A DNA stretch of 64,000 bases from Chiloscyllium plagiosum (taxonomy: Eukaryota): assembly GCF_004010195.1 (NCBI RefSeq), contig NC_057728.1, positions 5,968,175 to 6,032,174 of the forward strand, given 5' to 3'. Positions 1 through 63,210 of this stretch are shown here, piece by piece. The notes under the pieces were generated by a model. That model made no database searches. It saw only the letters and a program-made list of their open reading frames with translations, and had not been told where the DNA came from. The first letter of the stretch is position 1. The number at the start of each line of letters is the position of its first letter. The translations under genes were made by a program, and so were the position numbers.

Positions 1-150
1 CCAATGTCACATTGAGATGGACGGTCGTCCCAATACCCGGGACTGAGATTCTCAACTACCAAGTGAACACAAACTGCACAAACCACACCAACGGGATCAT
101 CCAGCTACAAACTCACCAACCTGGAAACACCACCAGTTTAGTTCTTACCG
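1..150 (+). CDS. Exon A1 (5'-truncated by window): N-half of FN3 domain 1
   Basis: [49 protein letters not shown]; donor G|gtgggt at 151; paralogous to 39328-39522. Confidence 0.9.
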
Positions 151-3100
151 GTGGGTATCTCAGATCTTACTGAGACTTCTCTGTCCTCAGAGACTGCTTA
201 GCACATTGTCATCTGCTTTCAAGAAAGGAAAAGTAATGATCTGGCCTGTGAAACCTGCTTTAACCATTGTGAGGCATCTGCCTCTTCTCCCACCCCTCCG
301 CCCCTCACTTTCTTTTGATTTAAAGATATTGACTTTTACTAGATCGTAAAAGCAAAGGATGAATTAGGCAAATTAACCGCATGAACCTGCTCTGCCATTT
401 AATACTTTCAAGGGTAGTCTCAGACATTTGTCCTGCTCCTGTTGACTGCACAAAGAAACCCCTTGTATCCAGCAGTAAATTTGCAGCATTTGCTGGTGTT
501 CAACCAAAGTTGGTCATCACTGCCGAGCCCGATCCCTGTTCAGCATCTCCATACAGAGAATCAGAAGGGATGAGTTAGATGGACACGGGATAGCCTCAAA
601 GTTGGGAGGAAGGGCACGGCTTGTGCTGAGTTTTGGGATTCGAGTTTAAAAGGGAGATGAGAGAGTAACGCATCCTGGGCATTGAAGATCTACTTCAGAG
701 ACATTCACCGAACAAGTGTCTTCAGGGACTGAGTTCTGGTTTTCTTTATTGTTAGAGACGCCTGTCTACCAGGTTGTTTTGCTGGCTGCGATCATTTAAC
801 ATTCCAATAGGCTGAAGCACACACCCTTTGAGATTAGATTAGATTAGATTAGATTACTTACAGCGTGGAGACAGGCCCTTCGGCCCAACAAGTCCACACC
901 GACCCGCCGAAGCGCAACCCATCCAGACCCATTCCCCTACATTTACCCCTTCACCCAACACTAGGGGCAATTTAGCATGGCCAATTCACCTAACCTGCAC
1001 ATCTTTGGACTGTGGGAGGAAACCGGAGCACCCGGAGGAAACCCACGCAGACACGGGGAGAATGTGCAGACACGGGGAGAATGTGCAAACTCCACACAGT
1101 CAGTCGCCTGAGGCGGGAATCGAACCCAGGTCTCTGGCGCTGTGAGGCAGCAGTGCTAACCACTGTGCCACCGTGACAATCTTCTCAATGAAATAGCAAT
1201 TAAATTAACAGAAACACACACTGAGAATAACTTAGTAATAAGAACTAATTATATTTATGTAGTCCAGTACCATTGTAAAATATATCAAGATGTTTCATAT
1301 GAATATCATATCATAGAATCACTGCAGTGTGGAAGCAGGCCATTTGGCCCATCAAGTCCACACCGACCCTCTGAAGAGCATCCAGCAACGCCCTCCCCCC
1401 AACCCTATCCCTATAACCCTGCATTTCCCATGGCCCATCCACCTAACCAGCACATCTTTGGACCTGCACACATGGGAGGAAACCGGAGCACGCAGAGGAA
1501 ACCCACACAGACAAGGGGGGAATGCGCAAACTCCACACGTTCACCCAAAGGTAGAATCAAACCTAGGTCCGTGGCACTGTGAGGCTGCAGTGCTAATCAC
1601 TGAGCCACCATGCTGCTCCATACGGACAGTTTAGGGAGGGAATTCCATGGCTAATGCCAAGGTAGCTTAAGGTGGTGACAAAATGAAAATTGGAGATGCT
1701 GAAGAGTCTGATTTGAAGGAATCCATGACGATTAGAATATTTTGGACCAGAGAAAACGATAGTGGTAGAGCAGATCAATGCCAAGAGAAAATTAAAAATA
1801 AGGCCGTAAATTTTAAAAATTGAATTATTACTGGATGTGTTTTGCTGGGATAGGTCCACAAATGTGGGGGATGATGGGTGAAAAAGACTGAGCACAGTGA
1901 GTAGAGTTTTGAATGGGCTCCAGTTTAAGAGGATATAATCTGGTCAAAGGAGCAGGGAGCAGGAATAGAGCTTTGGTCATTCCAAATTTGTGTCAATTCT
2001 CCATTGCAACCAATTCAATCACTTAGATACATAAGAAACTCACAGGGGTATTAATGGAAGTTATTTTTTGCAATTTTAGTATGTAGTCTCATTGACTAAT
2101 GTGACTGAAATTCCAGGTCTGGGCTCCCTATCACTGTGTACCACTGTGATCCAGGTAAACACCTCCTCTGATGGCCTGGTGACCACTCAGCCTTTTACCT
2201 TCAGGACCTACTCTGGTGAGCATTTTCAATTCTCTTCTTTTGTTCCTTGTTCCACAATGACCAGTCATGTGTTCGCGAACAAGTCGCCATAATTCAAGCC
2301 AGTATTTGGAAACAACTTGATGCAAAGTAACTTATTGACAGTTCTCTTCAGGGCTAATTGGACCAAGAGCAAAGCTGTCCTCTGGTTGTTTTATAAAAGT
2401 AATACCAGAAACATTGCAGGATAGCCTCCTTTCAATGGTGCACTATTAATGAGCTGACACTTGGTCAAGAACTGAAGAAAACGTCCCTCAAGATGAGGAA
2501 CTTAAATGATCCTGCAAGTGATATTGGAAATACTGAGAGAAAAAGCAGACTATTAGTTGAACTGGATGAGAGAACTGTAAAACTAATGACTTTAGCGATG
2601 CATTGAGTCAGTCCCATTCTCACCATGTGGTATCATATCAATGTACTATCAGCTCATTGACCAAGTATCATTCTTTGTTCTAGTTCTAATGTTCAGAACA
2701 GGATTGTTGAAAATTCGGTTAGAAACAGGAATGTTTCAGGATTATTAATAATAAGAACAGATTAAAAAATATGGAAAACGTGAGGACTGCAGATGCTGGA
2801 GAATCAGAGTCGAAGAGTGTGGTGCTGGAAAAGCACAGCCAGTCAGGCAGCATCCGAGGAGCAGGAGAGTCGATGTTTCAGGCATAAGCCCTTGCCCGAA
2901 ATGTCGATTCTCCTGCTGCTCACATGTGCTTTTCCAGCACCACACTCTTCGAGATTAAAAAATGTGCAGAATGCAATGGTTCATGAGCTAAGGAAGGCTT
3001 CCCATCTGAGATGAGTAGTCATCAAACTCTTACAACCTGTTTAACAGAGTCAGTCAGCTGTTCAACTGCAAACTAAGGGAAGAAACCAGAACACCTGAGG

Positions 3101-6100
3101 CTCAATGATCATTCCCTCCTTTTCTCCACAGCTTGAGTATACTAATCTCAGCTAAAGATGTGAAATTGTCAGCAGAGTTAAGGAAAGACAATTATATCAG
3201 CCTGAGTTTTCTACCATCACCTCTTCCCACTCCTTGCTTTATCGACTGAGAGTAGATTGTTAAGAGCTGATAGGTTCATGCCTGCCCCTGCTACCTCCCT
3301 ATTGGTGAACAGTGGAGTGGATCTTGAGATCATGCCTGCGTAATACTGGGGTGAAGTGGATCATCTGCTCTTGAATCCTGTAGAACATATTAACATAGGA
3401 AAAACAAGAAAATGAATTTGAGACAAGCTATCATTTCTACTTGGTTTTAAAAGCCATCTAGCAAATTGCAATTTACATTTTATCCATGAGCATTTTCTGC
3501 TGATATTTCATAATACTCTTAAGGTTAATGTATCTTTAATGTTTTTTCTCTTTTGGATAATGATTCCAGAATCTCTGAGTTTGACCTCCATCTCCACCAC
3601 CAGTGCTGTGATCTCCTGGGTCCCTCTTGGGAGTGAGAGTGCTCGGAGGGGCTGCAGTCTGAGCTACTACAGCATTGGGAGCCCCGACACTGTCCACACT
3701 GTCAGCCTCGTCCCAGTCAGTACAGAGGCAGTGATCACAGGTAAGATGGGAAGTCAACTGGCCTTCGTCTCTGTGGACAAGCATTGACGTTCTGTAAAAA
3801 TTCACAGAACATTGAAAAAAATCTTGTACTTTTCAAGATTTTGGACTATCCCGAGGTGTTCAGCTCTTGATTAAAAATGGGGTGTATGTATGTGTGTATG
3901 AGAGAGGGTCTGTGTGAGTGAATGAGTATGTAACAGTGTGTGTTTGTATAGTGTAGTTGGGTCACCTGTAGTGTGACATGAACCCTGGTTGAGGCCAACT
4001 CCATGGGTACCATATTAATGAACCAAAACCTGCAACCCATTCTGAAAGATGAAAGACTGAACAGCAATCTAGGCTTGTTCAATATATCATTTTAATTGCA
4101 TGACACCGCTATGAATTCTGTGTCTTATGATCCTGCCCCACTAGTCACCTGATGAAGGAACAGCGCTCCAAAAGCTAGTGCTTCCAAATACACCTGTAGG
4201 ACTATAACCTTGTGTGATTTTTAACTTGGTCCACCCCAGTCCAACACTGGCACCTCTACATCATAACACTTAATTAGTTTGCTGTAAAATGCACTCCCTA
4301 TTGTAAATCAGGAAATGTATCCAATCATTGTTGCACACCAAGCTGCTGTGGTTCTGTTCGCCGAGCTGGAAGTTTTTGTTGCAAACGTTTTGTCCCCTGT
4401 CTAGGTGACATCCTCAGTGCTTGGGAGCCTCCTGCGAAGGGCTTCTGTGGTGTTTCCTCCGGCATTTATAGTGGCCTGTCCCTGCCGCTTCCAGTTGTCA
4501 GTTTCAGCTGTCCGCTGTAGTGGCCGGTATATTGGGTCCAGGTCTATGTGTTTGTTGATGGAGTTTGTGGATGAGTGCCATGCTTCTAGGAATTCCCTGG
4601 CTGTTCTTTGTTTCGCTTGCCCTATAATGGTAGTGTTGTCCCAGTCAAATTCATGTTGCTTGTCGTCTACGTGTGTGGCTATTAGGGATAGCTGGTCGTG
4701 TCGTTTCGTGGCTAGTTGATGTTTGTGGATGCGGATCGTTAGCTGTTTTCCTGTTTGTCCTATATAGTGTTTTGTGCAGTCCTTGCATGGGATTTTGTAC
4801 ACTACATTAGTTTTGCTCATGCTGGGTATCGGGTCCTTCGTTCTGGTGAGTTGTTGTCTGAGTGTGGCTGTTGGTTTGTGTGCTGTTATAAGTCCTAGTG
4901 GTCGCAGTAGTCTGGCTGTCATTTCAGAGATGTTCTTGATGTATTGCAAATAACCTCCGTCTCCATTTCCCGACTCCCTTCCCAGCCCCTCCCCCTCTCT
5001 TCCACTCCACTTTGCCACCAACCGGATTCATTCCTCCCATTGACCAACCAGGTTGTACACTCTGCTTGTCTTCACCTATCCCCATTTCATCACTTTGTCC
5101 CCCCTTTATCTGCAGCTCCCCTTACACCCACTCCCACTCCTGAAGAAGGGTTGCACCCGAAATGTGGACTTCTCCTCCTGATGCTGCCTGGCTTGCTATG
5201 TTCTTCCAGCCTCCTGTTTGTCTACTTTGGATTCCAGCATCTGTATTTTGTTAGTCTCTAACTTGTATGTTAAAGCAGACAGCTCAGTAACATACCTGTG
5301 TCACCTCAGCTCAGAGGTTAGCCCGAGGCTTGTCACTGTCTGGCAATGTGGGTGGAATGCTCTGAAATTACTCTGGGACATCTCACTGGAGGACAGCATT
5401 AACATAAGACCAGTGAGACCATCCACAAACATGGTCATGGCTGATCTGTCTGGGACTGTCTCTATTAAATGGAAGGAGTATTGAGAGTAAAATTAGATAA
5501 CTACGTATCCAACATGGTGAATATTAACTACAGAATTCAGGAACTTGTATGTAACCATGAGTATTTCTTTTCAGGGTTGGAACCAGACGTGACTTACATC
5601 ATGTCCATTGTATGTGACTCTCTGTCTCCCTGGACACTTCGCTCCCAATCGCTAAATGTCACTACTCTCCCAAGTATGTATTTAGACAATGTATTATTGT
5701 TGTGAAATTGGCATTCGTTCACAGCTACAGAACTAAAATGTTTTCCTCAATCTGACTGCGGCTCTGTTTTATTGGCAGCTTCAAGATTCCTCAGCAACAT
5801 ACAGGCTTCCCATATAACCTCATCGACTGCTATGATTGCCTGGGACGTACACACTTCAGCCGCTGCCCTGGTTGAGTCCTACTCCATTAGCTATGGTCCT
5901 TATGGCACTGCCAGACCCAAGAAGAACATAATTGCTTTCCCTCCGAATACCAAAGTGATCCTCAATGGTAAAGACAGGGTGACCAATCCTGAGGGCATCA
6001 AGGAAGGGGCACTTTGACCAATGTTGGATGGTGTGGGAGTTGGTTGGCCAGTGCTGCACAAGCTAGTGTTGGGGTTGGAGCTGGGGCTGAGGGATTGGGA

Positions 6101-9100
6101 AAGAGACATAAATGTTCCTCACGGGTAAAGCCAGTCAAAGTGAACTGGTATGTCACAGTGTGATTCTGCAATCTTTTTCCTCAATGATGTCAAATTTGCT
6201 TGCAATTTCCCCTGAGTTGAGGAGAGAAAATCAATATCCTTGATGTTGGATTCAGCTGCAGAGCTCACTTCCATTAGGGTCTAATAGAGTCATTAGATAG
6301 TTCCTACCTTTACAGCTTCTCACTAGGCTATATATATGATTTATTAATTATTATTACAGATTGTTAAAATAACAATCAGTGAAGAAGTAGAGCATTAAGA
6401 GTGATGATGACCTGTGAGTATAGGAGTTAGGAGGTTATGTTGCGGCTATATAGGACATTGGTTCAGCCATTTTTGGTCTCCATGCAATAGGAAAGATGTT
6501 GCGAAACTTGAAAGGGTTCAGAAAAGATTTACAATGATATTGCTGGGATTTGAGGGTTTGATCTATAGGGAGAGGCTGAATAGAATGGGGCTATTTTCCC
6601 TGGAGCGTCGGAAGCTAAGGACCTCGTGGAGGTTTGTGAAATCATGAGGGGCATGGATAGGGTGAATAGTCAAGGTCTTTACCCAAGTGTAAGGGAGTCC
6701 AAAACTAGAGGGCATAGGTTAAAGGTAAAAGGGAAAAGATTTAAAAGGGACCCAAGGGACCATTTTTTTCATGCAGAGACTATTGCATGTGTGAAATGAG
6801 CTGCCAGAGGAAGTGGTGGAGGCTAGTACAATTACACCATTTAAAAGGCATCTGGATGTGTACATGAATAGGAAGGGTTTAAAGAGATATGGAGAAAGTG
6901 AGGTCTGCAGATGCTGGAGATCAGAGCTGAAAATGTGTTGCTGGAAAAGTTCAGCAGGTCAGGCAGCATCCAGGGAACAGGAGAATCGACGTTTCGGGCA
7001 TAAGCCTGAAGAATTCCTGAAGAAGGGCTTATGCCCGAAACATCGATTCTCCTGTTCCCTGGATGCTGCCTGACCTGCTGCGCTGTTCCAGCAACACATT
7101 TTCAGCTCAGTTAAAGAGATATGGGCCAAATACTGACAAATGGGGCATTTCTGTGGATAGGTGTGAACGTGATGGCCGCATTACAATTTTAAACACCATC
7201 CTCATTTCAGACAATGTCTTTGATTACTTGTAAGGCACTGTCCTGGTTTTCAGGGTAGGAGATGGCCCAGTGGTATTATCATTAGACTATCAATCCAGAG
7301 ATCCAGGTAATGTCCTTGGGACCTGGTTCAAATACCACCATGGCAGCTGGTGGAATTTTTCAATTGCAATTGAATTCAATAACAAAATCTGGAATTAAGA
7401 GTTGAGTTATGACTATGAAACCATTGCTGATTGTTAGGAAAATAACCCATCTGGTTCACTAATGTCCTTTAGGGAAGGAAAACTGCCATCCTTGCCTGAC
7501 CTGGCCGACATGTGACTCCAGATCCACAGCAGCAGTGACTCTTAACTGCCCTCTGGGCAATTAACATTGGTCCAACCAGTGACACCCACATCCCATCAAA
7601 GTCAGAAAATAGATCCGATACAGAAGGAGTGGATATTCTTTCAGTGATTGCTCACTGTGACATTAACTCAGTTGAGCCCAAATTCCAGCCACTTAACCTG
7701 ACCTTCCACATTAATAAACTCATTCCCCATCAAAACCCACAATTGAATTTGCTTCTACCACATTTTCAGGCAGTGCATTTCAAATCCTAAACAGACACTG
7801 TGTATAAAAAATGCTTTTATTGATTCTTTTGCTTTAAACCTTCTATCGATGTCTACTTTAAAATTAGATGCAAGTTACCAGGTATCCCATTATTTGCCTT
7901 GAATAGGTCTGAGTGAGTCAACTCCATACGTTGTCATTGTTTCTGTGAAAACTTCCTTTGGAGAAGAGAAGACCAGTTCAACATTATATTTTAAAACCAA
8001 AATGTGTAAGTTTTCCAAAAAATATCACATTGTTAATCATTTTGGGTTGGAAGGAGTTGTGCAATTATGAATGTTTCCTTTGAAGTTCCATTCCTTTGTT
8101 TCCATCGTGAAGATACTGTCCAATATGATTGTCTCAGAACATCTACACACTGGCTCAGCCAGCAGAGCTATAATAAGAAGCTGAATTGAAGCATGTGAGA
8201 GGTATTCAAGCCCTGAAAGGTGTCACACCTTCAAATTCCAATACTAGGTAGAACATGGAACTTTACTAATCTAGTAAAACATGGTCAACAAACATTTTTT
8301 GGTGGGGGGGGGGTATTTTAGGGTTTTCTGTGTGACAACTGAGAAGGTCGTCATGTTCATGTCATGTACAGACTTGCAAAAGACATTTGTTAATGTGGCA
8401 CAGCCTTGCCAGTGTTGTTCAAATCCATGGAATAAAAGGGACAGTAGTGGCTGAGGGACCAAGAGTAGAGAGTAGAGGTGACTTAAGGATTTGATGTGGA
8501 AGAAAATTAATCTGGACTTGACTGACTAAAAATGATGATGTTGGGTAACTATTAGATTGTGTTTACTGTGTATTTTAAGATCTTGCAAACTGCACCATAT
8601 ATTTAGTTAGAAATGTAGAAGCATAGAAAATATGACCAGAAATTGGCCATTCAGCTCTTTAACAGTGTTCCCCTATACATTATGACCATGGCTGGTCATC
8701 CAACTCAGTCCCCTGTTCCCACTTTCTCCCCTTTAGCTCTTAGAACTATATCTAACTCCTTTTAGAAAAGGTTTTGGCCTCTGCTGCTTTTTGTAATGGA
8801 GATAGTTTGTGACTCCTGGATCTGGAGTTCCCAGTCATCAGGAACAGACTTTCTGCATTTGCCCTCTCTAATCCTGTTAGAATGATATAGGTTCCTGAGA
8901 TTTTTCTCAGTCTTTGAAGCTCCAGTGAATATAGTCCTAATTGATTGAGTCTCTCCTCAGTCCTCCATCTCAGGAATAATGTTCTGTCAGATGTTCTTAC
9001 CAGCTGAACGTGCCTCTGAGAGCCACGCATGGCAGCAACGTCTCTCCTGATCGGCATACCGATGCCAATTGCTGTGCACGGCACATCAGAAAGGCTGCAT

Positions 9101-12100
9101 ATATGCGCAGCCTCGGTAGAATGTTGTCGATGAATCAGTCTGGTAAACCCATGTTGCACTGCCTCCAGATAAAGAGATCAAGCCTGCACGTGGTACTCCA
9201 GGTGTGGTCTCACCAAGGCCCTGTACAATTGCAGCAAAATATCCCTACTCCTGTAATCAAATCCTCTCGCAACGAAGGCCAACGTGCCATTTGCTTTCTT
9301 CACCATCTGCTGCACCGTGTGCTTTGATTGTTCTGTTCTTATTTTTGCCTGTATTTTTGCCTTCTGCTTTATTGTCAAAGAAATTCTGTAGCCTTGTGTG
9401 CCTATATTTCAGTGAATGACCGTCATATTAAATAAATGAAGCATGTGGTTTATCGATTCATTCTGAAATCTGACTTGTCCGGCAGTACCATCAGCTGGGG
9501 TCGTAATACTTGACCGTGGCACGGTAGGTTGTGAAGGTGGAGGAATCAGCATACGACATCCTGGGCGTTACATGTAAAGGCATGGAGTACAGAAGGAAGA
9601 GAGATATAAACATTGCTGCTGTTTGCAATTCCAAACACTGCACAATTTTAGGACAGACGTGAAACCTTTAGATCAGATAGAGAAAAGATTTGCAAGGATG
9701 ATTCCAGTGATCAGAGACTTCCGTTAACAGGATGGACTGGAGAAGCTGGTTGTTCTCTTTAGATGAAAAGGTCAGAGGAGATTTGATATAGATGTTTACA
9801 ACCGCGAGCGATGTAGTTGGCCGACATCGGAAAAAAAACATTCCTTTTAGGACACAGATCAAGAACCAGAGACCACAGATGTGAGGTGAATGGAAAAGTC
9901 ATAAAAGGCGACAAGAAGATGGATGCAGTTTGGATCAGGAACACACTGGTCAAGAGTGTGGAGGAGGCAGATTCAATCATGCCCTTAAAAAGGAACTGGA
10001 TAAACACCTGAAATGACAAATATTGGAGGGAAATGGAGAAGAGCAGCCATGAGACTAGCTAAATTGCTCTTAAAGAAAACTCGACAAAAGGAATGGCCAC
10101 CTCTGGGCTGTAACCATTTTAAAATTCTAAACTAGCACAAAGAGAACTGTGTATGCTCCATAGATCACGTGCATGAGAACTGCTTAATATGTTTAAACGA
10201 TACTAGATTTGAGTTTTCCTCCTATAGTTACCTACATTTCCCAGTTGATATTTGATTTTTACAAAGTATAATTTTGCCAGCCTGTACCACAATTGAGAGA
10301 TTCCATTCGGCCTTGTTGTGATTTGTCTAAACCATCTCTTTTGTTTTATTTGCACAGTTATTGACATGTGCCTGAGCAATCCGTGTGGAGCCAATGCCTC
10401 CTGTATCCAGCAGGACGGAAGCTTCAGATGCTCCTGTGGGACTGGCTACACCTGGAATGGATCTGTCTGTACAGGTGTGTGATGGGGATCAGTGAACCCA
10501 GTGGGGAGTGAACTGAACACACTGCTTCCACAGCAGACTGGAGACTGTGTCACGTTCCAAACCAGACTAGGAATCAGTGAGATCTCTGGTTTAGTTTACT
10601 TATGATGAAATCCACCCCATGAAAAGTGACTGTCCTCATGTTTGAACATTCAGATATGAGTAATTGTTGGTGCAGGAACGAAGGTTTCAGGTAAATGGAT
10701 AATTGGGGGTCATTCTGGGAAAGGTGGGACATCTACAAACAGGATTGTCTTCACTTGAACCAGAGGGGTACTAATATCTTGGGTGGGAAATTAGCTGGTG
10801 CTGTTCGGTGGGTTTAAATGAGCTCACAGGGGGATGGGAACCTATGCTATAGTTCCAGTTCACAGGTGGATGACAGTAGGGAGGATATGGACAGGATTTC
10901 AGTCACAGGAGTGTGCTGGCAGACACCAAGCTGGTTTGAAGTGTGTCTACTTCAATGCCAGGATTATCCAGAATAAGGTAGGTGAGCTTGCAGCATGGAT
11001 CGGTACCTGAGACTTCGATGTTGTGGCCATTTCGGAGACACGGATAGAGCAGGGTGAGGAATGGATGTTGCAGGTTCCAGGGTTTAGATCTTTCATTAAG
11101 ATCAGGGAAGGTGGTAAAAGAGGGGGAGGTGTGGCCTTGTTAGTCAAGGACAGTATAACGGTGGCTGAAAGAACTTTTGACAAGGACTCGTCTACTGAGG
11201 TGGTGTGGGCTGAGGTTAGAAACAGGAGAGGAGGGGTCACACTGCTGGGAGTTTTTTATAGGCCTCCGCAGAATTCCAGGGATGCAGAGGAGAGGATTGG
11301 CAAAACGATTCTGGGTAGGAGTGAAAGGCACAGGATGGTCATTATGGGGGACTTTAACTTCCCCAACATTGACTGGAAATGCTATAACCCTAGTACATCA
11401 GATGGATCAGTTTTTTGTCCAATGTGTGCGGGAGGGTTTCCTGACACAGTATGTAGACAGGCCAACGAGACAAAGCCACACTAGATTTGGTACTGGGTAA
11501 TGAACCAGGCCAGGTGTTAGATTTAGTTGTAGGTGAGCACTTTGGAGAGAGTGACTATAATTCAGTTACACAGGTCAAGAGTTATAACTGGGGGAAGGGC
11601 AATTATAATGCGATAAGGCAAGACTTAGGAGCATAGAATGGGGTAGCAAAATGCAGGGAATGAGGACAATCGAAATGTGGAGCTGGTTTAAGGAACAGAT
11701 ATTGCGTGTCCTTGATAGATATGTCCCTGTCAGGCAGAGATGAGGTAAGGGAACCGTGGTTTACTAAAGAAATTGTACCACTTGTTGAGCGGAAGAGGAA
11801 GCCTTATGTGACGTTGAGATGAGATGGTTCAGATGAGATGGTGGAGAGTTACAGATTAGCTCGGAAGGATTTAAAAGGAGAGTTAAGAAGAGCAAGGTGT
11901 GGACATGAGCAGTCTTTAGCAGGTAGAATAAAGGAGAACCCTAAAGCTTTCTATAGGTATGTGAATAAAAGGATGACTAGGGTAGGAATAGGGCCAAACA
12001 AAGACAGAAGTGGGAAGTTGTGTGTGGACTCTATGGAGATCGGAGAGGTGCTAAACGAATATTTCTCATCGGTTTTCACTCAGGAAAAGGAGAATATTGT

Positions 12101-45100: not shown

Positions 45101-48100
45101 TATTGAGGAATGTTTGATTAAAGTTGATTTTAATTTGTTTATTATAGTAAACCTCTTGAAAGTGTGAAATCATGAGCTTTGGTCATTTCTATCAGTTCCT
45201 GGGAATTTTCCTTTGAAGATGGTAGGAAATATTGCCCTCTTGATTCGAACCCAGAGCTATAAAATGGGTACTCATTGTGTTTGATTTTTTTTTAATATTA
45301 CTTTTACCTTCAGAAACGATTCCAGAATCTCTGAGTTTGACCTCCATCACCACCACCAGTGCTGTGATCTCCTGGGCCCCTATTGGGAGTGTGAGTGCTC
45401 TGAGGGCCTGCAGTCTGCACTACTACAGCGTTGGGAGCCCCGACACTGTCCACACTGTCAGCTTTACCTTAACCAGTACAGAGGCAGTGATCACAGGTAA
45501 GACGTGAAATTAACCAGCCCTCATGTATGTGGACGGACCTTGGAATTTGGCTGCCTGGCCCCAGTGATACCCTGGCCTTATCTTAAGTAGGGCTCCTCAT
45601 TTTTTTTAGGGCTCCCTGTCATCCCAGATGTGACCACCTCTCGTGCCAGGCACTCTCTCACTATTTTGGGATTTTCTCCCGAGGTAGGAGGTGAACGTGT
45701 CTCAATTTAAAGCAACTGACCCTGCTCCTAGCGTTAAATTGCTAAGTGCCAGCCATCTCCATGATGAGCAGGCTGACTGAATTTTATGACGGGGTGGCCT
45801 GTGATCACAGGAACTGTGTAAAACTCAGCCCCAGGAAGTACAGCAGCCAATTTGCACGCAGCAAGTTCTCACAAGCAGCAGATTGAAGGATTAAAATTGG
45901 CCAGGATACTGGCAACAAGTACTCTGCTCCTCTTCATAGGAGTTTTGTGGCGTTTTCACATACGGTAATGTGTCATTGATTCACTGGAGCAGTCTTTCAG
46001 ATGGAACACTGACAGGGCTGCTCTCTCTTCAGTGTTCACTGGACTATTGTTCCAAATCTAGAAGAAAGTGAGAACTGCAGATTCTGGAGATCAGAGTCAA
46101 AATGTGTGATGCTGGAAAAGCACAGCCAATCAGGCAGCATCCGAGGAGCAGGAAAGTCGATGTTTTGAGTATAAGCTCTTCATCAGGATGCCCACCTTGA
46201 AGAAGTTCTCCTCCTCTTCCTGATGACGAGTTTATGCTCAAAACATCGATTCTTCTGCTCCTGGGATGATGCCTGACCAGCTGTGTTTTTCCAGCGCCAC
46301 ACTTTTTGACTATCCTTCCAAATCTCCTGAGTTGGATTTGAACTCACAATCTCCTTATTCAGAATCAGCAGTGCTACCACTGAGCTGCAGCTGACCCTGA
46401 AGTCACTCCTTCACCTCTGATAGTGATTGCTGCGAGTAAGACGATGTTGATCTTGAGTCTGGAGGTTACTGTGTAAAATGTTTACGCAAAAGGAGGGATG
46501 CGTCTTCAGTGTGAAATGATCTTCAGATCGCATTGCAAGTGACTGAGAATCCGAGAATGCATAACTTTCAGACTTCCCAAATGGTTAGATAAAATGCTAC
46601 TGCCAAAGTCGCTAGGTTGTTTAATTTTTAAATGAAGCCAAATTATTTGTCCAAAGAAGGAATGGGCTCATTCACAAATGGATGACAATGACGGGCAAAG
46701 ATATATTTCTAGCTTGTTCCCCAATGTGAGATAGACCCAGGTCACATGAGTCTGACAGTCTTACTAATTTGTAAAGATTAGATTTCAATGTTTCATCTAA
46801 TATCCAAGTAGATTTTGCAGGATGAGGTTTGCTGCCAAGGCTGTCTGCATGTGGTGGTCATGTGTCATTTGTGTCATTATATTCCCTGGTTATTATCTTG
46901 CTTCCCCACAGGAAGAGTGCTTTCCATCTATTTAATGTCCAGCAGGACACCGGTTAAACTCAGGTCTGACCCTGAGAAGGTTCAACATCCCTCAATTCTG
47001 TTTCTATCATTCAACTCGCGTCAGTCTCTTTCTTTGTTTATTGCAAGATTCGTATCGACTCGCCCCTGGATCGCTGATCAGTGATCAGAAGGGGTGCCTG
47101 ATTTTAATCCCTCCTCTGCACCGGCAGGAAAATAGATCAACTCAACACAACACATCCTGGAGTTGAACTTAGGACCTACTTGGTCCAGGCGCCTGTATCC
47201 CACTGAGTCACCAACTAAGTTCATAGACAACCCTTTGATACTTTGCATTTGACTCATTTTAAAATAAAGAATCAGGAGATTGTTTTGTCTGAACAAAGAA
47301 GTTGCCACATTTCCAATAACTAAAGTTGGTAAACGTTTTCCTTTTCATTGTTATCCGGATATGTTCCATCCTCCACTCATTATGCAACAGGAAGCCTCCC
47401 AGTTTTCCCATTGTAAATTCCAATGTTCCACCCATCCTGGTTTCCTCAATTTATCTTTTTAGCCTCCTGAGAGTGATAAGCAAGGGATTTGATTAAAACA
47501 TACTGCTAAAGTAATGTCTGACCTAGTAAGATGTTTTAAAATTGCAGCTGGTTTAGCAAAACATGAATAGCATGTGAAGGGCTGAAGTTGTAAAATCATT
47601 TCCTCCCCACCACCACTCCGTTGATATCAATGGATGGAGCAAAGGGAATGTGATATAAGTGGGAATGGTGGTAACTCAATGGTTAGTACTGCAGCCTCAC
47701 AGCACCAGGGACCCCCGTTCAATTCCACGCTCAGACTACTGTCTGGGTGGAGTTTGCACATGATCCCCCTGTCTGCATGGGTTTCCTCTGGTTTCCTCCC
47801 ATCATCCAAAGATGTGCAGGTTAGGTGGATTGGCTATGCTAAAGTGCCCCATAGTGCCCAGGGATGTGTAGGCTGGGTGGAATAGCCATGGTAAATACAG
47901 GGAGAGAGTAAGGCGATGGGTCTGGGTGGGATGCTTTTCAGAGAGGTGATTTGGACTTTTTGGGAAGTATGGCCTGTCTCCACATTGGAGAGATTCTATG
48001 ATTCTAGTTAAATGGTTTCCACCTAGAAATAGGCAGCAGGCTGAGAATCTGCCTAAATGTAAAACAAGCCATTGACCAACACTGATTTGCTATTTAACTT

Positions 48101-51100
48101 AGTTAATTTTTAATTGAAGGGTCATAGACTACATGCCAGCACGGTGGCTCAGTGATTAGTACTGCAGCCTCATAGCGCCAGGGACCCGAGTTCAATTCCT
48201 GCCTCGGGTGACTGTCTGTGTGGAGTTTGCACATTCTCCCCATGTCTGTGTGGGTTTCCTCCGGGTGCTCCGGTTTCCTCCCACAGTCCAAAAATGTGCA
48301 GGCCAGGTAAACTGTCCATGCCAAATTGCCCATAGTGTTAGGTGCATTAGTCTGGGGTAAATATAAGGTGGGGGGATGGATCTGGGTGGGTTAGTCTACG
48401 GAGGGTCAGTGTGGACTTTTTGGGGCCTGTTTCCATACTGTAGGGTATCTAATCTAATCTAATCTAATCATAAATCATCATGAGTTTGAAGTAAAGGGAA
48501 ATTTACAATACATCATCAGCCCCAGAGATAGCAACTGAATCACAGCGAGTCTGAAGTCAACATGAAATTGTGAATTTCTCAAAGGAAGATTTACACATTA
48601 GTTCAAGTTTCTTTCACATCTTCTTCATTCATGTAAACTCCCAAGTCACATGTTAGAGAATCAGACAATATTTTTCGGTTTTATGGCATTTTTTTAAACC
48701 AATCAACCAAGTGGTTTCCAATGGTAATCTAAGACGCCCTCCCTGCAACTCTACCTCCTGCTGATAAGGCAATGTCTCTCCTCACACAGGATCACAGATT
48801 AGTTTGCAAACTCAGTTGCCCTAAAGATTCATATAGTAAGGTTCCACCTTTGTTCCTTAGTTTATGTCAGATCTCAACCAGGGTCATGTGTGTCAGGTGT
48901 GGCTCAGTGGTTGCACTCTCAGGTAGTGTCCCTTCCTATGGACCAAGTTCCACTTGCTCCAAAGGTGTGAAATAACCTCTCTAAACAGGTTGATTAAAAT
49001 ATCTAGAAGGTTGTAGATTCATTGAACTCCAAAGCTTCCTGGTAGATTTCTCATTTGCCTCTCTGAATCCTCTCATCACAGTGGAGTCCATTGCAAGTTT
49101 GGTGTGGACCTTCCCAAAACTGCCAGTTCTGTTCCTGCTTATGCTTGGAGGAATCTCTGCAACTATGACACTTTAAGCTTTCCTCCATGCAGGTTGAATA
49201 TTGTATGTTTGTCTCAGATAGCCTTCACAGCTAATGCTTCCCTCCACGTGAGCCATTAATAGTAATATTTTCCCAAAAGAAGTGACCTTTAATGCGAAAT
49301 CATACTGGCCACCTTCATGTGGTTTACCCTGAGATAGTTCTCCTTAGTAGATCTGCTTGCCTGACCTGCTGTGCTGTTCCAGCAATAAAGTTTCAACTTT
49401 GATCTCCAGCATCTGCAGACCTCACTTTCTCCCATTCTATACTCATTGCTGACCCTGGATTCTGCACTTTAAAACAGGGGAAGTGATGACCCCAGTGGTA
49501 TTAATTCTAGGCTGTTAATCCAGAAACTCAGCTTTTGTTCTGAGGATGTGGGTTCAAAGCCCGCCAAGTCAGATAGTGGAACTTGAATTCAATTTTTAAA
49601 AACCTATCTGGCAAACTAATGTCCTTCAGGAAAAGAAATCTGCCATTCTCACCTGGTCCGGCCTGCATGTAACTCCAGGGACACAGGGATGTGATTAGCT
49701 CTTGACCGCCCTCTGAAATAGGGCTTATGCCCGGAACGTGGATTCTCCTGTTCCCTGGATGCTGCCTGACCTGCTGCGCTTTTCCAGCAACACATTTTCC
49801 ACCCTCTGAAATAGCCCAGCAAGTCACTCAGTTCAAGGGCAGCTATGGGTGGGCAATAAATGCTGACCAGCCAGTGACACCCACATCACACAAATAAATT
49901 AAAACAGTGTGCTGGAGACTGGAATCCATTGCAACTAAATGACAGCTGCAGATGAGACCAAGGTAGATAAAGGTAACAGATCCCATGATGCTGTTTCAAA
50001 GGTGGTCACCTTCTCTATGTCTTGGCAGTGCTTATACCACAAGCAACATCAGCAAAACAGATTCTGGTCATCATTTAGCTCCTGCCTGTAGAACCTTGCT
50101 GTGTGGAACTTGGCTGCTCCATTTCTTACATAGCCACAGTGACTCTACTTGAGAAGTACATTGTTGGCTGATTTTGGAAAGTCGTGCAGAAAAGCAAGTC
50201 TTGCTTCTATCAGGGCAGTCCCTGGGGTTGGGGAGGTGGGTGTCGTTATTTCTCGCACTTGTCCTAAATTAAAAGAGAGGAAATCATCCATGGATCCTGT
50301 TCTTGATCTGATGGATGAAATGTTGTTGTGTACACTGGTTACCCGGTCACATTATTGGAGTGTGAACACTGGAGAGATTGGCATTACAGCTTTGCTGGGA
50401 TGTCAATAGAAATCCCTTAACAGTAGTTTAGACCAATGTTTATATCAGTTGCCTTGAGTCTCACCTGCCCAGCAGAGAAATTGGAGAACTAACATGGAAA
50501 TTCACACACTCAATAAAGAAGTGGTCTGTTGTCCACACTGGGGGAGGTCCAACACACTTTGCTGCAGGCATACAACTTGATGCACCTGTGAAGGTGAACA
50601 GCTTGAAAAGATAAAATTGGCACCACTCATCCTCCCAGCTTTTTGATATGAGGGAAGGGAGGTCAAGAAGTAAGAATAAATAACAAAGTATTCTGACACA
50701 ATGAATTTAGTGAACCTTGGTATTCTGCTAGTTATATTAACCATGAGTATTTTTTTTCAGGATTGAAACCAGACACTACCTATACAGTGTCCATTGTGTG
50801 TCACTCCCTTTTTAACCGGACACTCAGCTCCCAGCATCTGAATGTTACTACTCTCCCATGTATGTATTTACAAATTTTATCATCAGTCTAAAGTTGTCTC
50901 TCTCTCTCTCTCTCTCTGCAAGGGAACAGAGATGTTTTTCTTAAATTGACTGAGGCTCTATTTTGTTGGCAGCTTTGAGATTCATCATCAATGTGTACGC
51001 CTCCCATATTACCTCATCTACTGCTGTGATTGGCTGGGATCTACACCCTTCAAAGGCTGCCCTCATTTGGTCCTACTCCATTAGCTATGGTCCTTATGCT

Positions 51101-54100
51101 CGTGGTGGACCCACCAGGAATATAATTGCTTTCCCTCCGATAACCACTGTGATCCTCACAGGTAAAGACATGGAAAATGTGGAGTGAGAATGGTCTTTTG
51201 CTTCTGTAATCTGCTGAGTTAGGGACAGTGACGCTGGGATCCAGTAACTTTGGAGATGGGTCCTGCAGTAGATCCCCCTTCCACCAGACTCCTGTCCCAC
51301 ATGGGCAGCCTTGAACGTTACACTGGGTTATGGGAGACTTTATCAGAGTGCAGATGTGATGTGGCATTCAAATATATCAAATTAAAGATCAATATTAAAA
51401 TTAAATTAAGATAATGATCAATCAGGAGGAAGCGCACAAAAGTGCCAATGACCTATGACCATTGTATGAGGGTAATGAAGGGGTAAAAGATGAAATTATT
51501 GCCAGAAACTACTGAGGCAGGTGAAAATGTTTTGCATTGGATCCTGCAGCCTGGAAAAAAATGATTGTTAGAGCTCAAAGAACCAGTTATGGGATTTCTA
51601 AAGACATTTCAGGTGGCTCAGCGGTTAGCACTGCTGCCTCACAGCACCAAGGATCCAGGTTCAGTTGTACCCCCTGACAACTTCCTGTGTGGAGTCTGCG
51701 TGGGTTTCCTCCCACAGTCCTAGGATGTGCAGGTTGGGTGGATAGGCCTGTCGTGTCCAGGGCTGTGAAGGCTAGGTGGATTAACCCTGGGAAATGCAGG
51801 GTTACAAGGATGGGGTAGGGGATGGGTCTGGGAAAGATGCTCTTTGAAGGGTCAGTGTGGACTTGACAGCCTGCCTCCACACTGTAGGGATTCAAATTAA
51901 TTGAACACTGGGAATTATATGATAAATGTTCAAATTGGATTTAGTTTGCACAAAAGCAATTGATCTTAATTTAGAGTTAATTAATTTTAATAAATAAAGT
52001 TTTCCCAGTGCATTCGCCCCATGTAATCACTTGATGTCACTGTGATTTTTCGTTCCTCCCATTCAGTTCACAGTCAGTCAGAAAGACAGCTTTTTCAAGG
52101 TCTCTCTTTCTGCATTATATGTAGTTAAGGACCCAGCAATGACTGTGGCGCTCCACAGTTGCCAACCTAAGAAAGACCTATTATCACTAGTCTCTGCTTC
52201 CTGTTCACTAACCCATCCTTTATCCATGATAATATGTTCCACCCTGCACCATGTGCTCTTGTCTGGTGTAGTAACCTTTCGATGTGGCATCTTTTCAAAT
52301 TAATTTTGCAAAATCTAAATATATAACATCTGCTGCTATGGAAAATAAAGAGCATGAAAGCATGGAAAGGGTTAAGACATGAAGACCACTGGCAATCTGT
52401 GTTCTGTGGCAGGCAGGATGGGTTAACTATAGTGGAACATTCTTACACCAATTAGCAAAGTAAGGTTAAGGATGAAAGGTCACTGTGGCGTGATGAGGTA
52501 ACACAAGTAATAAAGCAAGTTTCTCTGTTAAATGTTATTATGACAGGATTGGGACCATAAATATTTGGGACATGACATTAAAATATCTAATTAATAGTTA
52601 GTCGAGTCAGCTTAAGACAGGAGACTATTATAATAGATGGAATAGCTAAATATCTATCATAACAGGTTAGTCTGCAATTGAAGATCACGGTAGCATAGTG
52701 AGCAATAAATATTTAACCGTGACATTAGAATAACATTAAGTAGAATGTACAACTAAAGAGATAATGGGAACTAACATCACTGGTTTATTGCGTAGCTAGA
52801 GTGAGGTACTTTGGTTAATATAGTTGGACATGCTGATAAGCTAACAGAATCATGATACAAAAAATATAAATATCCACAGACCCTGAGGTTCGGGGGCATT
52901 CGAGAATCTGTTTTCTCAGTGTCACGGTTTCTTGTTTGCAAATAAAAGACCTATTTCTTGAAGAACTCTCTGCGTCTCCTGGTGATTCTCTACATTTTCT
53001 CCACTACACTGCTTCCCCTCTTCTTCTTTCACAAAGATCAAGTTTTGATTTTCGAAATGAATTTTTTCAGGGAGTACAGTCAATCAGAGACTGTTCATGA
53101 CTAATAAAACTTTCCCATTTCTGCTCCGGATAAGTGCCCCTTAAGGAATACTAGCACAGCAAATGAGAAGGACTATAAGAGGGAAGGTGTCTTCACTGAA
53201 ATTGTCATAAGGATTCCTAAAGGTGCAGTTTTATTGCCAAGATAGAACAATCAGTGTCCCACGTGTTTGCAACGTTTTATACCTTGCACAGATATTCCAT
53301 TGTTTTAAAAAAATTGTTGGGACTTAGGTCCAGCTGCTTTGCCTCTGAGATTTGATTGTAGTTGTGTTGGTTGTCATCCAAAAACAGCACAGTCACCTCT
53401 TTAAAATGGAACCCAGTCAGTCACCATCTTATTATTTTCCTTTAACAGATCTGAATCAGTCAACTGTCTACATTGTAACTGTTTCTGCAAAAACATTATT
53501 TGGAAAAGAAGACACTGGTTCAACATTGAAGTTTATGACACAAAGCTGTAAGTATTTCTCTTATGTCACTTTGTTAACCATTTATTCTTGTTCCATCTTA
53601 ACCAATGGATGACTAATGTTAAACTAAAGTGGAGTAATACATCCCAGAGAATTCCCCATTGCTCCACACGGATGTAACCTCTCCATACCTTCCGCACGTA
53701 TTGCTGTATTGACCCTCATTATTTCCTGATCTCACCTGGAACTCCCAAATTGTCAGCAGAATCTGTTCCCATGAAATTTGGGATACTGTTGTTCCAAAAT
53801 GCATTTACTATCAATTGTTTGAAGCTTTTTGGAAATCCAAGGTGGCTCTGTATAAAAGCTTTCTCTGTATAAAAGCTTCCAACAGCTGTCTCACTTATTT
53901 CCACTCAGGATGTAGACATTTTGAAAAAAAAGCTTAAAGCGAGGTCTGTTTTTTTTTTCCTTATCCTCCAGCCCCTGCTGGTTTAGTGCTACCTGTTCCT
54001 TGCCTCTCCTGAGTGTTTTCAAGAGATCATCGTCAGTGCTTCTCTGAAGATTTAAACGTTTTGTTGGGGTTTTACCTCAGTAAAATCACACCTTCCTTTG

Positions 54101-61095: not shown

Positions 61096-62044
61096 GATGA
61101 GTCTGAATGGTTTTCTTGTAACTCTGGGGTAAGAGTGATGAAAATTCAAGTCAAGTTACAGTCTCTTCAGTCGATGTCTCAAGGTCTTCATGATCCACCC
61201 TGGAATGTATCACACAGTCTGATGAACCATTGCAGCACCAATGTAACATGTTGAACACGGCACCTTTTGCATCAGACTTAAAAACTCTCTTATCTTCACG
61301 AGCTATTCCAGAGAGAGGTGGCTTTTTTCAGCGGTACTGGAAGGTATTGCTCTTGCCACCCCAATATTTATATGTTGGCCCAGTTAATGGTGGAGGATTC
61401 AGCAATAGTTGGATATCATTGGAGTGGCTAAACTCTCCTTTTGGAGATGGTTATTGGAAGGCATTTATGTGGTGCAAATGTTACTTGCCCCTTGTCAGCC
61501 GGGCCGGCTGTTGTCCAGGTCATGCTCCAGAAGGCAAACATTGCTTCAGGAGTCACAGATTGTGTAGTCATCAGAGAGGTTTCTCACCACTGTCTTCATC
61601 ATGGAGTGAAGGTCATTGATGAAGCACCTAATGGTGACTGAGGCTTGGATACTCCCCTGAAATAATCAACCTCCAATCGCCATGATAACAATGCAATCAT
61701 AGAATCCCACCAGTGTGGAAAAACTGAATCCAAAGAGCCAGATTTTCCAAGGACTGGCAATTTGCATTCAGCCTTGTCTTATACCCGAAAAGTAGAGAGC
61801 TTCCACGGGAGATCCCACTCGGTGCTCCCTCACAAATGTTCTATGTTAACATTAACATGGTAATGTTTCTTTATGCCTATAAAAACATGAACACAGTGCC
61901 TACTCCTGACGCCAGGAGGAGTTTGTACTCTGCAACTTCCTCATGACCTTCTGAAGGTGACGTTCCTAGAATCGGCCACAGTGCAGCCGAGACCTTACCA
62001 GTGATTTGTAAAGGTTTGGCATGTCTTGCTTCTGTGTGTCACAT

Positions 62045-63210
62045 CTCTAAATGATTTGGAGGAGAATGTAGGTGGCCCACCATGTTTGCGGATGACACAA
62101 AGATTGGGGGAGCTGTGGATGTGAGGAGGATTGTCAGAGGATACTGCAGGATATAAATAGGATGGAGACTTGGACAGAGAAATGGCAGATGGAGTTTAAT
62201 CCAGACAAATGCAAGATGATGCTTTTGGAAAGTTTACTGCAGGAGGGCAATATAAGTAAATGGCAGAACCCTTAGAAGCATTAACATACAGAGGGATCTA
62301 GATGCACAGGTCTACAGTTCCCTGAAAGGGGCAGTGCAAGTAGATAAGGTGGTCAAGAAGGCATAATGACATGCTTGCCTTCATTGGTCAGGGCATACAG
62401 TATAGAAATTAGCAAGTCATGTTGCAGCTGTATAGAACTTTAGTTTGGCCACTTTTGGAATATTGCATACAGTTCTGGTCGCCACAGTACCAGAAGGATG
62501 TGGAAACTTTGGAGAAGGTAAAGAAACAGTTTACCAGAATGTTACCTGGTTTCGAGGCTATTAGTTATGAGGAGAGATTGGATTAACTTGGTTTGTTTTC
62601 ACTTGAACATGAAAAAGTGAGGGGTAGCTTGATAGAAGTTTAAAAAATGATGAGATCATGGATAGAGTAGATGGTTGGAGTCGTTTTCCGAGGATAGAAA
62701 TGTCTGTTACAAGGGGAAATAGGTTTACGGTAATAAGATCGAGAGTGTGCTGCTGGAAAATCACAGCAGGTCAGGCAGCATCCGAGGAGCAGGAGAATCG
62801 CTGTTTCGGGCAACAGCCCTTCTTCAGAAATTCCTCATGAAGGACTGTTACCCAAAACGTCCATTCTCCTCCTTCTCAGATGCTGCCTGACCTGCTGTGT
62901 TTTTCCAGCACCACATTCTCAATTCTGATCTCCAGCATCTGCAGTCCTTACTTTCTCCTTACAGCAAGGCTAAAGGAGATGTGAGAGGTGAGTTTTTGTT
63001 TACAGAGAAGGTGTTAAGTGCCAGAGGAGGTGGTGGAGGCAGATACAATAGCAATGTTTAAGAGGCATCTTGATACATATATGAACAGGGAGGGAATAGA
63101 GGGATACAGACTGCGTAGAGGCAAAAGGGTTTAAGTTTTAGAAAGGGTCATATGTCAGCATGGATCTTGGTGGGCCAAAGGGCCTACTCTGCATTGTACT
63201 GTTCTTTGTG
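62045..63210 (+). mobile_element. CR1-type LINE fragment with a nested fold-back element (62737-62958)
   Basis: FADDTK, WTEKWQMEFN, LYRTLV..LLEYC; palindromic gctggaaaa...ttttccagca insert. Confidence 0.85.

What the first reader, a model, noticed from the sequence alone, without database searches (positions are those of the whole stretch)
1..53547. Duplicated 6-exon FN3 block with a monotonic identity gradient
Seen: exons A1-F1 (1-8005) recur as A2-F2 (39328-53547) with conserved phases and matching sizes where comparable (B, D, F 99 nt; E 189 nt). Hand-counted amino-acid identity falls in order: A 47/49, B 30/33, C 45/57, D 23/33, E 41/63, F 18/33. Introns hold different TE insertions and align only near exons. 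Inference: an old internal duplication whose 5' part has been repeatedly re-homogenised by gene conversion or unequal crossover. This predicts another EGF/CUB-like block upstream of position 1.
Basis: partly seen in the sequence, partly recalled or inferred. Interest (0 to 1): 0.7.

Follow-up and report, generated by a model that had tools for sequence, protein, structure and literature searches.

The report
Shark receptor with partly homogenised repeats
The window holds the last two repeat units of a very long, unnamed shark cell-surface protein related to uroplakin-3, and the front exons of each unit are kept alike within each lineage by gene conversion while the back exons and the introns have been diverging for roughly 200 million years, a known process seen here in an undescribed gene.

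Summary
The six-exon duplication is real. It is the last two units of a multi-unit array, [EGF-EGFca(n)-CUB-EGF-FN3x3], in an elasmobranch single-pass protein ending in a uroplakin-3-like domain, a membrane helix and a tail without phosphatase. Amino-acid identity falls monotonically (96 to 56%), but synonymous divergence is a step: 0.08 in A-C, 0.34 in D-F (p 2e-6). Intron flanks are about 60-72% alike around both groups, so homogenisation is almost confined to exons. In protein trees A-B group by genus (terminal-unit clade rejected, p-AU 1e-4) and D-F by position (genus clade rejected, p-AU 1e-51). Orthologous divergence is flat along the block, so constraint alone fails. The predicted upstream EGF/CUB block exists in the sister species' model. 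Best reading: a duplication about 230 My old, with slow short-tract gene conversion persisting in CUB-EGF-A-B (C mosaic) after D-F and the introns escaped. Manta ray repeats a shorter unit ending after B, the part sharks keep homogeneous. The process is known (KRTAP1, HMA4, shark scpp/sparc-L), and this scan noted exon-limited conversion on another piece of this genome. Cross-species evidence is from predicted proteins only; expression is untested.

The parts
1..150 (+). Exon A1 (5' end cut by the window), first half of FN3a, penultimate unit
   Evidence: 143/150 nt identical to A2
2117..2215 (+). Exon B1, second half of FN3a
   Evidence: 94/99 nt; A+B fold as FN3 in a sister unit's model
3570..3740 (+). 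Exon C1, first half of FN3b; uses the downstream acceptor (4 codons shorter than C2); mosaic exon
   Evidence: 154/171 nt, 8 of 17 differences within exon positions 138-148
5575..5673 (+). Exon D1, second half of FN3b
   Evidence: 72/99 nt
5779..5967 (+). Exon E1, first half of FN3c
   Evidence: 148/189 nt; Pfam fn3 E 0.028, below cut-off
7907..8005 (+). Exon F1, second half of FN3c; end of the penultimate unit
   Evidence: 70/99 nt
10358..10474 (+). EGF exon that opens the last unit
   Evidence: EGF_3 E 3.8e-8
14212..14334 (+). Calcium-binding EGF exon 1 of 4 near-identical copies
16463..16585 (+). Calcium-binding EGF exon 2
18572..18694 (+). Calcium-binding EGF exon 3
20417..20539 (+). Calcium-binding EGF exon 4
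22146..22271 (+). EGF exon of a second type (intact copy; a garbled copy lies at about 21506-21888)
24997..25122 (+). Calcium-binding EGF exon preceding CUB; database model P0004 starts inside it
29645..29830 (+). CUB domain, first exon
   Evidence: Pfam CUB E 0.059, below cut-off; Z 11.9, rmsd 2.5, 105 aligned to Kremen; Z 11.0 to TSG-6 CUB
33069..33287 (+). CUB domain, second exon
38012..38131 (+). EGF exon between CUB and FN3a
39328..39522 (+). Exon A2, last unit
41696..41794 (+). Exon B2
45314..45496 (+). Exon C2 (183 nt with the upstream acceptor, as in P0004; part comparable to C1 starts at 45326)
50761..50859 (+). Exon D2
50973..51161 (+). Exon E2
53449..53547 (+). Exon F2; end of the repeated array
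54649..54776 (+). First half of the unique fourth FN3 (phase 1-0)
60054..60240 (+). Second half of the unique fourth FN3 (phase 0-1); the uroplakin-3-like domain, membrane helix and tail follow beyond the window
   Evidence: (fn3 E 4.6e-5)

Best explanation
The window is the 3' part of the ectodomain of one large single-pass membrane protein gene of sharks and rays. An ancestral gene had one CUB-EGF-FN3x4 block in front of a uroplakin-3-like juxtamembrane domain (inferred from the sawfish model). In the ancestor of at least three shark orders a roughly 40-kb unit [EGF-EGFca(n)-CUB-EGF-A-F] was duplicated in tandem (old duplication shown by trees; about 230 My from dS, inferred). Introns then diverged and took up different transposons, which ended recombination over long stretches. 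Short DNA-level gene conversion tracts could still act between paralogous exons wherever purifying selection kept them alike, so CUB, EGF, A and B stay similar within a lineage, with a mean time since last exchange of tens of millions of years (pattern shown; mechanism inferred). D-F passed the divergence threshold early and have since evolved by position; C is the mosaic boundary. The likely trigger is that F packs against an EGF in internal units but against the fourth FN3 in the last unit, so conversion there was selected against (inferred, untested). The protein most likely works as a long, heavily glycosylated, calcium-stiffened multivalent adhesion or surface-coat protein held in the membrane by a uroplakin-type tetraspanin-binding stalk (inference from domains only, about 35% likely).
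For: pS step 0.08 vs 0.34; dS 0.084+-0.029 vs 0.46+-0.09. Flank identity similar around A-C and D-F (7-25 nt from the exon: 58/82 vs 64/90; 51-100 nt: 136/223 vs 140/237; unrelated flanks 0.50-0.55). A-B tree groups by genus, D-F tree by position; AU tests 1.35e-4 and 1.4e-51. Four-sequence informative sites, species pattern/position pattern: C. punctatum-Stegostoma 18/1 in CUB..B vs 1/18 in D-F, Cetorhinus-S. torazame 12/0 vs 2/9; 8 of 10 non-independent species pairs at p<0.05. The same drop appears in last-vs-penultimate comparisons in 5 of 5 shark species. Orthologous identity is flat: A-C vs D-F 0.825 vs 0.841, 0.796 vs 0.786, 0.723 vs 0.675. All 12 internal shark F exons form one clade (99/96) across three orders. 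The 24 exons join into 1123 codons without a stop, 601/601 identical to P0004 over the shared part and 91% identical to the single two-unit model P0009. Uroplakin 3A match E 8.6e-10.
Against: Cross-species data are gene predictions at protein level; no DNA of other units or species was available, so conversion tracts were never seen directly and introns of internal units are untested. No site supports conversion after the split of the two Chiloscyllium species (0 species-pattern, 2 position-pattern sites in A-B). C. plagiosum vs S. torazame gives p 0.09, with 4 species-pattern against 2 position-pattern sites in D-F, so D-E were not frozen in all lineages. In Cetorhinus internal D-F are homogenised (0.84-1.00), which looks like a plain edge effect. 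Exon C is unresolved by tree tests (p-AU 0.14). Exons are short (23-49 synonymous sites each) and per-exon intervals are wide. The C. plagiosum annotation splits the array into several models. No expression or function data.
Confidence: 0.78

Rival explanations
1. Unequal crossing-over between misaligned units rebuilt the 5' part of the last unit from an internal unit, giving a polar gradient.
For: Unit number differs among species, so crossover or slippage has acted on the array; in Cetorhinus internal units are alike through F and only the last unit decays.
Against: A crossover carries introns with it, but the A-B intron aligns only in four short pieces at 70-86% and the B-C intron not at all; the position-specific acceptor of exon C and an 11-nt island inside C persist between identical stretches.
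Confidence: 0.1
2. Conversion is templated by spliced mRNA or cDNA, which would explain why it stops at exon edges.
For: Identity drops within a few bases of most splice sites of B, C and the four EGF exons.
Against: The 58 nt after exon A are 50/58 identical (45/52 beyond the splice site, binomial p 0.005 against 0.70, picked after the fact among 11 flanks), about equal to A's synonymous identity, so at least one tract ran into an intron. D-F lie in the same message and are not homogenised.
Confidence: 0.05
3. Selection alone: A-C are more constrained than D-F and no exchange occurs.
For: Amino-acid identity falls in order in the window.
Against: Synonymous sites show the same step; orthologous divergence is no lower in A-C than in D-F, and between the two Chiloscyllium last units it is higher (124/137 vs 125/126); A-B group by genus.
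Confidence: 0.03
4. Assembly or polishing artefact: reads of paralogous exons overwrote each other.
For: The assembly is locally imperfect: a garbled copy of one EGF exon at about 21506-21888 and an N gap at 26169-26651.
Against: The pattern recurs in five species' assemblies; A1 and A2 differ at 7 sites, and two amino-acid differences are shared by position with C. punctatum.
Confidence: 0.04

Closest known systems
Mammalian KRTAP1 cluster (bioRxiv 10.1101/282418; abstract and first part of Results read)
   Same: Coding regions group by species, flanks by position, with an abrupt boundary; short-tract conversion plus selection proposed.
   Different: Separate small genes; here the units lie inside one gene, 40 kb apart, and only some exons of each unit take part.
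Arabidopsis halleri HMA4 paralogues (bioRxiv 10.1101/2025.10.29.685298; abstract and section 7 read)
   Same: Mosaic divergence: long introns escape interlocus conversion while coding sequence stays alike; some exons hold fixed differences.
   Different: A few million years old and whole-gene copies; here about 200 My and intragenic.
Shark scpp / sparc-L (PMC9122587; passages and section 7 read)
   Same: Old elasmobranch duplicate with conversion limited to discrete exon-covering zones, trees by species in those zones and by paralogue outside.
   Different: Two genes; no repeat array.
Abalone VERL (PMC2704960; seven passages read)
   Same: Large cell-surface protein with an array of domain repeats in which some repeats (3-22) evolve in concert and others (1, 2) independently.
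   Different: Whole repeats are homogenised or not; here the split runs inside each unit.
UPK2/3 uroplakins, R3 receptor phosphatases and the Ciona phosphatase-less form (PMC5242461; parts 1-3 of 5 read)
   Same: FN3 domains, then a long juxtamembrane FN3-like domain with four cysteines, a membrane helix and, as in CionaNocat and UPK3, no phosphatase.
   Different: Ectodomain of thousands of residues with EGF and CUB arrays, CNGPL motif degenerate, tail of 360-457 low-complexity residues.

Membership tests
Concerted evolution by non-allelic gene conversion | Paralogous copies closer within than between species | tested here: met
   A-B and CUB trees, AU test; met at genus level and above, not between the two Chiloscyllium species
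Concerted evolution by non-allelic gene conversion | Synonymous sites show the same similarity | tested here: met
   pS 0.08 in A-C vs 0.34 in D-F, window pair only
Concerted evolution by non-allelic gene conversion | Discrete tracts; neighbouring DNA not homogenised | tested here: met
   Intron flanks and exons D-F diverged; island in C
Concerted evolution by non-allelic gene conversion | Non-reciprocal transfer, or polymorphisms shared between copies in a population | not testable with these tools
   Needs phased population or pedigree data; no reads could be laid
Whole-unit homogenisation by unequal crossover | Introns homogenised together with exons | tested here: not met
   Last two units only; other units not available
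UPK2/3 uroplakin family | Juxtamembrane long FN3-like domain plus membrane helix homologous to UPK3 | tested here: met
   P0013 vs uroplakin 3A (8jj5_C) E 8.6e-10, profile E 7e-10, Pfam Uroplakin_II E 0.0075 below cut-off
UPK2/3 uroplakin family | Cysteines C1-C4 and C3-Xn-C4NGPL motif | tested here: inconclusive
   Four cysteines in the domain; three align with UPK3A cysteines, the first lies outside the query; motif reads CDKPL
UPK2/3 uroplakin family | Intron phases 1,1,2,1,2 around the domain | tested here: inconclusive
   Only the first intron is in the window (phase 1); the others lie beyond it
UPK2/3 uroplakin family | Ectodomain under 200 residues | tested here: not met
   Membrane helix at residue 1552 of P0009 and 3101 of P0014
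UPK2/3 uroplakin family | Pairs with tetraspanin UPK1a/1b | not tested
   No shark UPK1 sequence was in hand
R3 receptor tyrosine phosphatases | Single cytoplasmic PTP domain | tested here: not met
   No Pfam phosphatase hit; no catalytic motif (pattern recalled) in 5 of 5 models with tails
R3 receptor tyrosine phosphatases | Ectodomain of FN3 domains only | tested here: not met
   EGF and CUB domains present

The most novel reading that the evidence does not exclude
Sharks and myliobatiform rays independently multiplied the same EGFca-CUB-EGF-FN3a module of an undescribed giant uroplakin-3/PTPRQ-derived receptor, and selection for identical, multivalent copies of that module, not mere leftover similarity, keeps gene conversion alive in exons 40 kb apart for about 200 million years while the spacer FN3 domains of each unit are held to their position. 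The boundary of conversion would then map the functional module, and the gene would be a living vertebrate counterpart of the phosphatase-less intermediate proposed between PTPRQ and uroplakins.
Probability: 0.3. Interest if true: 0.7.

Novelty: new variant of a known kind. Interest (0 to 1): 0.45.

Why it matters
It is a clean, replicated natural case (five shark species, three orders) of where gene conversion persists and where it stops inside one gene, with an internal clock from the escaped exons; with genomic DNA of the array it would test threshold models of escape from conversion over very long times. It also exposes an elasmobranch membrane protein family that databases split into fragments and name after fibrillin, Notch or fibronectin, and that carries the uroplakin-3/PTPRQ juxtamembrane domain without a phosphatase. 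The evolutionary process itself is not new.

Tried and rejected
No whole genome was held, so the DNA upstream of position 1 and other units could not be read. Sequencing runs: 24 listed, 20 holding part of the stretch, no RNA holder listed; no reads were laid, so splicing, expression and copy depth are open. The structure model of the uroplakin-like domain failed (pLDDT 35) and was not searched; that assignment rests on sequence. Foldseek on the CUB-EGF-FN3 model (pLDDT 60) gave only low TM multi-domain matches; the domain calls rest on VIA-align. Pfam found nothing for single exons A1, C1, A2 and the two CUB exons (5 of 14 queries). Positive selection on exon C (pN 0.125 vs pS 0.034) is borderline (Fisher p 0.05-0.24 by rounding) and not claimed; the excess fits an ancestral island kept by position. 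Exon length does not explain the step (B 99 nt homogenised, E 189 nt not). GC3 is higher in A-C (0.55-0.68) than D-F (0.28-0.53); this fits GC-biased conversion but was not tested further. Five weak representative hits without elasmobranch names (P0018, P0020-P0023) and a sea-urchin CUB protein (P0019) were set aside, as were two ermine low-complexity hits. Literature: six locus ids gave 0 papers; shark/uroplakin/EGF/CUB listed 15 of 1,107 papers and uroplakin/UPK3d/shark 10 of 31, none describing this gene by title or abstract start; the library lacks most subscription papers and no supplements were read, so prior description is not excluded. Earlier scan notes near this place or like P0009: none.
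Full report
Observation. A self-comparison of the window finds the paired exons among many transposon matches. All twelve exons have AG/GT ends and phase 1-1, with matching sizes. At DNA level the order breaks: 143/150, 94/99, 154/171, 72/99, 148/189, 70/99. Synonymous differences per site are 0.14, 0.07, 0.03, 0.45, 0.27, 0.39; they are heterogeneous (p 5e-5) and best described as a step, 8.5/106.9 in A-C against 33.6/97.4 in D-F (Fisher p 1.6e-6). Corrected dS is 0.084+-0.029 and 0.46+-0.09. With the shark rate quoted in PMC9122587 (Ks about 0.2 per 100 My; section 7 read) these are roughly 40 and 230 My, with wide error.

Introns. Paired introns differ in size by up to 3.4 kb and align only in short pieces: four in A-B (47-184 nt, 70-86%), none in B-C, three in C-D, one in D-E, none in E-F. 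Anchored flank identity is similar around both groups: 7-25 nt from the exon 58/82 (A-C) and 64/90 (D-F); 26-50 nt 86/120 and 67/116; 51-100 nt 136/223 and 140/237; unrelated flanks give 0.50-0.55. The 5' flank of E was left out because the D-E intron was counted from D; the whole D-E intron is 74/105. So the introns around A-C are about as old as D-F, and only the exons look young. One exception is the 58 nt after A (50/58), which suggests a tract running into the intron. The four calcium-binding EGF exons show the same picture: 114-119/123 nt identical with much weaker flanks.

What the gene is. Twenty-four exons join into 1123 codons without a stop, all 23 introns GT-AG; the last 601 residues are identical to the start of a Chiloscyllium plagiosum database model (P0004, XP_043564920) and the whole is 91% identical to one C. 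punctatum model (P0009) that holds both units. The order is FN3 x3, EGF, EGFca x4, EGF, EGFca, CUB, EGF, FN3 x3, a fourth FN3. A model of a sister unit (pLDDT 60) aligns its CUB part to Kremen (Z 11.9, rmsd 2.5, 105 residues) and TSG-6 CUB (Z 11.0) and its A+B part to FN3 domains (Z 12.1, rmsd 2.2, 94 residues). Beyond the window the homologues continue into a domain matching uroplakin 3A (E 8.6e-10), a membrane helix and a 360-457-residue tail with no phosphatase motif in 5 of 5 models. PMC5242461 (parts 1-3 of 5 read) derives this domain from R3 receptor phosphatases and describes phosphatase-less forms in Ciona. The shark protein works like those in its membrane-proximal part but fails membership of both families (ectodomain size, EGF/CUB content, no PTP). 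Strong homologues were found only in sharks and rays; these searches are word-limited or capped, so wider distribution is not excluded.

The array. The repeated unit is [EGF-EGFca(n)-CUB-EGF-A-F]. Units seen in models: C. punctatum 2+2, Stegostoma 2+1 plus part of another, Cetorhinus 2+2, S. torazame 2, and in C. plagiosum further partial units (P0005, P0010, P0015) that differ from both window copies. The manta ray model (P0014, 3481 residues) has six CUB units, but internal units end after B and only the last has C-F; a Hemitrygon fragment also runs from B into EGF; the sawfish model (P0031, with a hydrophobic N-terminus) has a single unit. The sawfish entry is one isoform of several, so the single-unit ancestor is an inference.

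Phylogenetic test. Per-exon protein trees used every unit that had the exons; a second assembly's copy of the C. punctatum last unit (P0006) and P0028 were left out as duplicates, and manta rows were left out of the AU tests. A-B group by genus; a clade of the four carpet-shark last units is rejected (p-AU 1.35e-4). D-F group by position: the same four units form a clade (100/99) and a Chiloscyllium clade is rejected (p-AU 1.4e-51). C is unresolved (p-AU 0.14). With rays as outgroup all 12 internal shark F exons form one clade (99/96, only 32 columns), which places the duplication before three shark orders split; for D-F together the support is 66/92. Informative sites switch from species pattern in CUB..B to position pattern in D-F in 8 of 10 non-independent species pairs at p<0.05 (18/1 vs 1/18 for C. 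punctatum-Stegostoma; 12/0 vs 2/9 for Cetorhinus-S. torazame); the exceptions are the two Chiloscyllium species (0/2 vs 0/40) and C. plagiosum-S. torazame (13/0 vs 4/2). The Stegostoma penultimate unit is assigned across two adjacent models, supported by an unstarred branch (87-91). Last-vs-penultimate identity falls from 0.81-1.00 in CUB..B to 0.56-0.78 in D-F in 5 of 5 shark species, not always monotonically. Orthologous identity is flat along the block (0.825 vs 0.841; 0.796 vs 0.786; 0.723 vs 0.675), which removes selection alone. Among internal units D-F are 0.56-0.82 alike in carpet sharks but 0.84-1.00 in Cetorhinus, so an edge effect explains the basking shark but not the bamboo shark.

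Mechanism. Shown: old duplication, exon-limited and lineage-specific similarity of CUB..B, positional descent of D-F, mosaic C (8 of 17 differences in an 11-nt island between 32 and 23 identical bases, whose residues follow position in Stegostoma). Inferred: short DNA-level conversion tracts that survive only where selection keeps exons above the similarity needed for recombination (general theory, recalled), with D-F having escaped, perhaps because F meets different neighbour domains in internal and last units. Unequal crossover must have set unit number but cannot explain young exons between old introns. A cDNA template is disfavoured by the overhang after A. Artefact is unlikely given five assemblies. 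Function is inferred from domains only: a long glycosylated (40 sequons in 1938 residues) adhesion or surface-coat protein on a uroplakin-type stalk.

Comparison with what is known. Coding-only concerted evolution is described for KRTAP1 (10.1101/282418; abstract and first part of Results), escape of long introns for HMA4 (10.1101/2025.10.29.685298; abstract, section 7), islands of divergence for copepod GOT1 (PMC3728101; abstract), exon-zone conversion in sharks for scpp/sparc-L (PMC9122587; passages, section 7), and partly concerted repeat arrays for VERL (PMC2704960; passages). Argiope silk genes (PMC9779670; 12 of 26 passages) are the contrast, with homogenised introns. PMC3922775 (five passages) names no EGF- or fibronectin-bearing uroplakin. 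Earlier scan notes report exon-limited conversion in shark ICAM-like genes on another piece of this genome (e1-7788876) and an ordinary intragenic case in another genome (e1-636885); neither was checked here. I found no paper on this gene, within the limits of the library.

Verdict. The process is known; the within-unit split, its replication across shark orders, its match to the unit that rays expanded separately, and the undescribed uroplakin-3-related gene make it a new variant. Interest 0.45.

Noticed in passing
window 21506-21888 vs 21979-22323: Near-exact local duplicate (403 matches, 4 mismatches) of one EGF exon with its flanks; the first copy carries an internal 38-nt repeat that shifts the frame. 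Probably a misassembly; it may be why the database model starts downstream.
   Followed up: partly
window 14212-20539: Four calcium-binding EGF exons 93-97% identical with flanks far less alike; non-synonymous codon differences outnumber synonymous ones (25 vs 9 over six non-independent pairs).
   Followed up: partly
window 3558-3570 vs 45314-45326: Exon C of the penultimate unit lacks the upstream acceptor used by the last unit (4 codons shorter). Most internal units of Chiloscyllium and Stegostoma models are short, those of Cetorhinus and Scyliorhinus long: a position-specific splice difference at the edge of a converted exon.
   Followed up: partly
window about 10700-13050 and 58750-59800, 62040-62730: Degraded LINE-like reverse-transcriptase fragments in introns (family not tested); many tRNA-SINE-like copies throughout.
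   Followed up: no
window 26169-26651: Assembly gap of 483 N inside the intron before the CUB exons, within a retroelement-like stretch.
   Followed up: no
P0003, P0004, P0030 cytoplasmic tails (beyond the window): Low-complexity Gln/Thr/Gly/Ser tail ending in two to three copies of a roughly 50-residue repeat, conserved from sharks to rays (one copy in sawfish).
   Followed up: no
P0014 (Mobula), P0038 (Hemitrygon), P0031 (Pristis): Rays: six shorter units ending after exon B in manta, B-to-EGF junction in a stingray fragment, a single unit in the sawfish isoform; suggests an expansion independent of the shark one.
   Followed up: partly
window exons A-F: GC3 falls from 0.55-0.68 in A-C to 0.28-0.34 in F, as GC-biased conversion would predict.
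   Followed up: no
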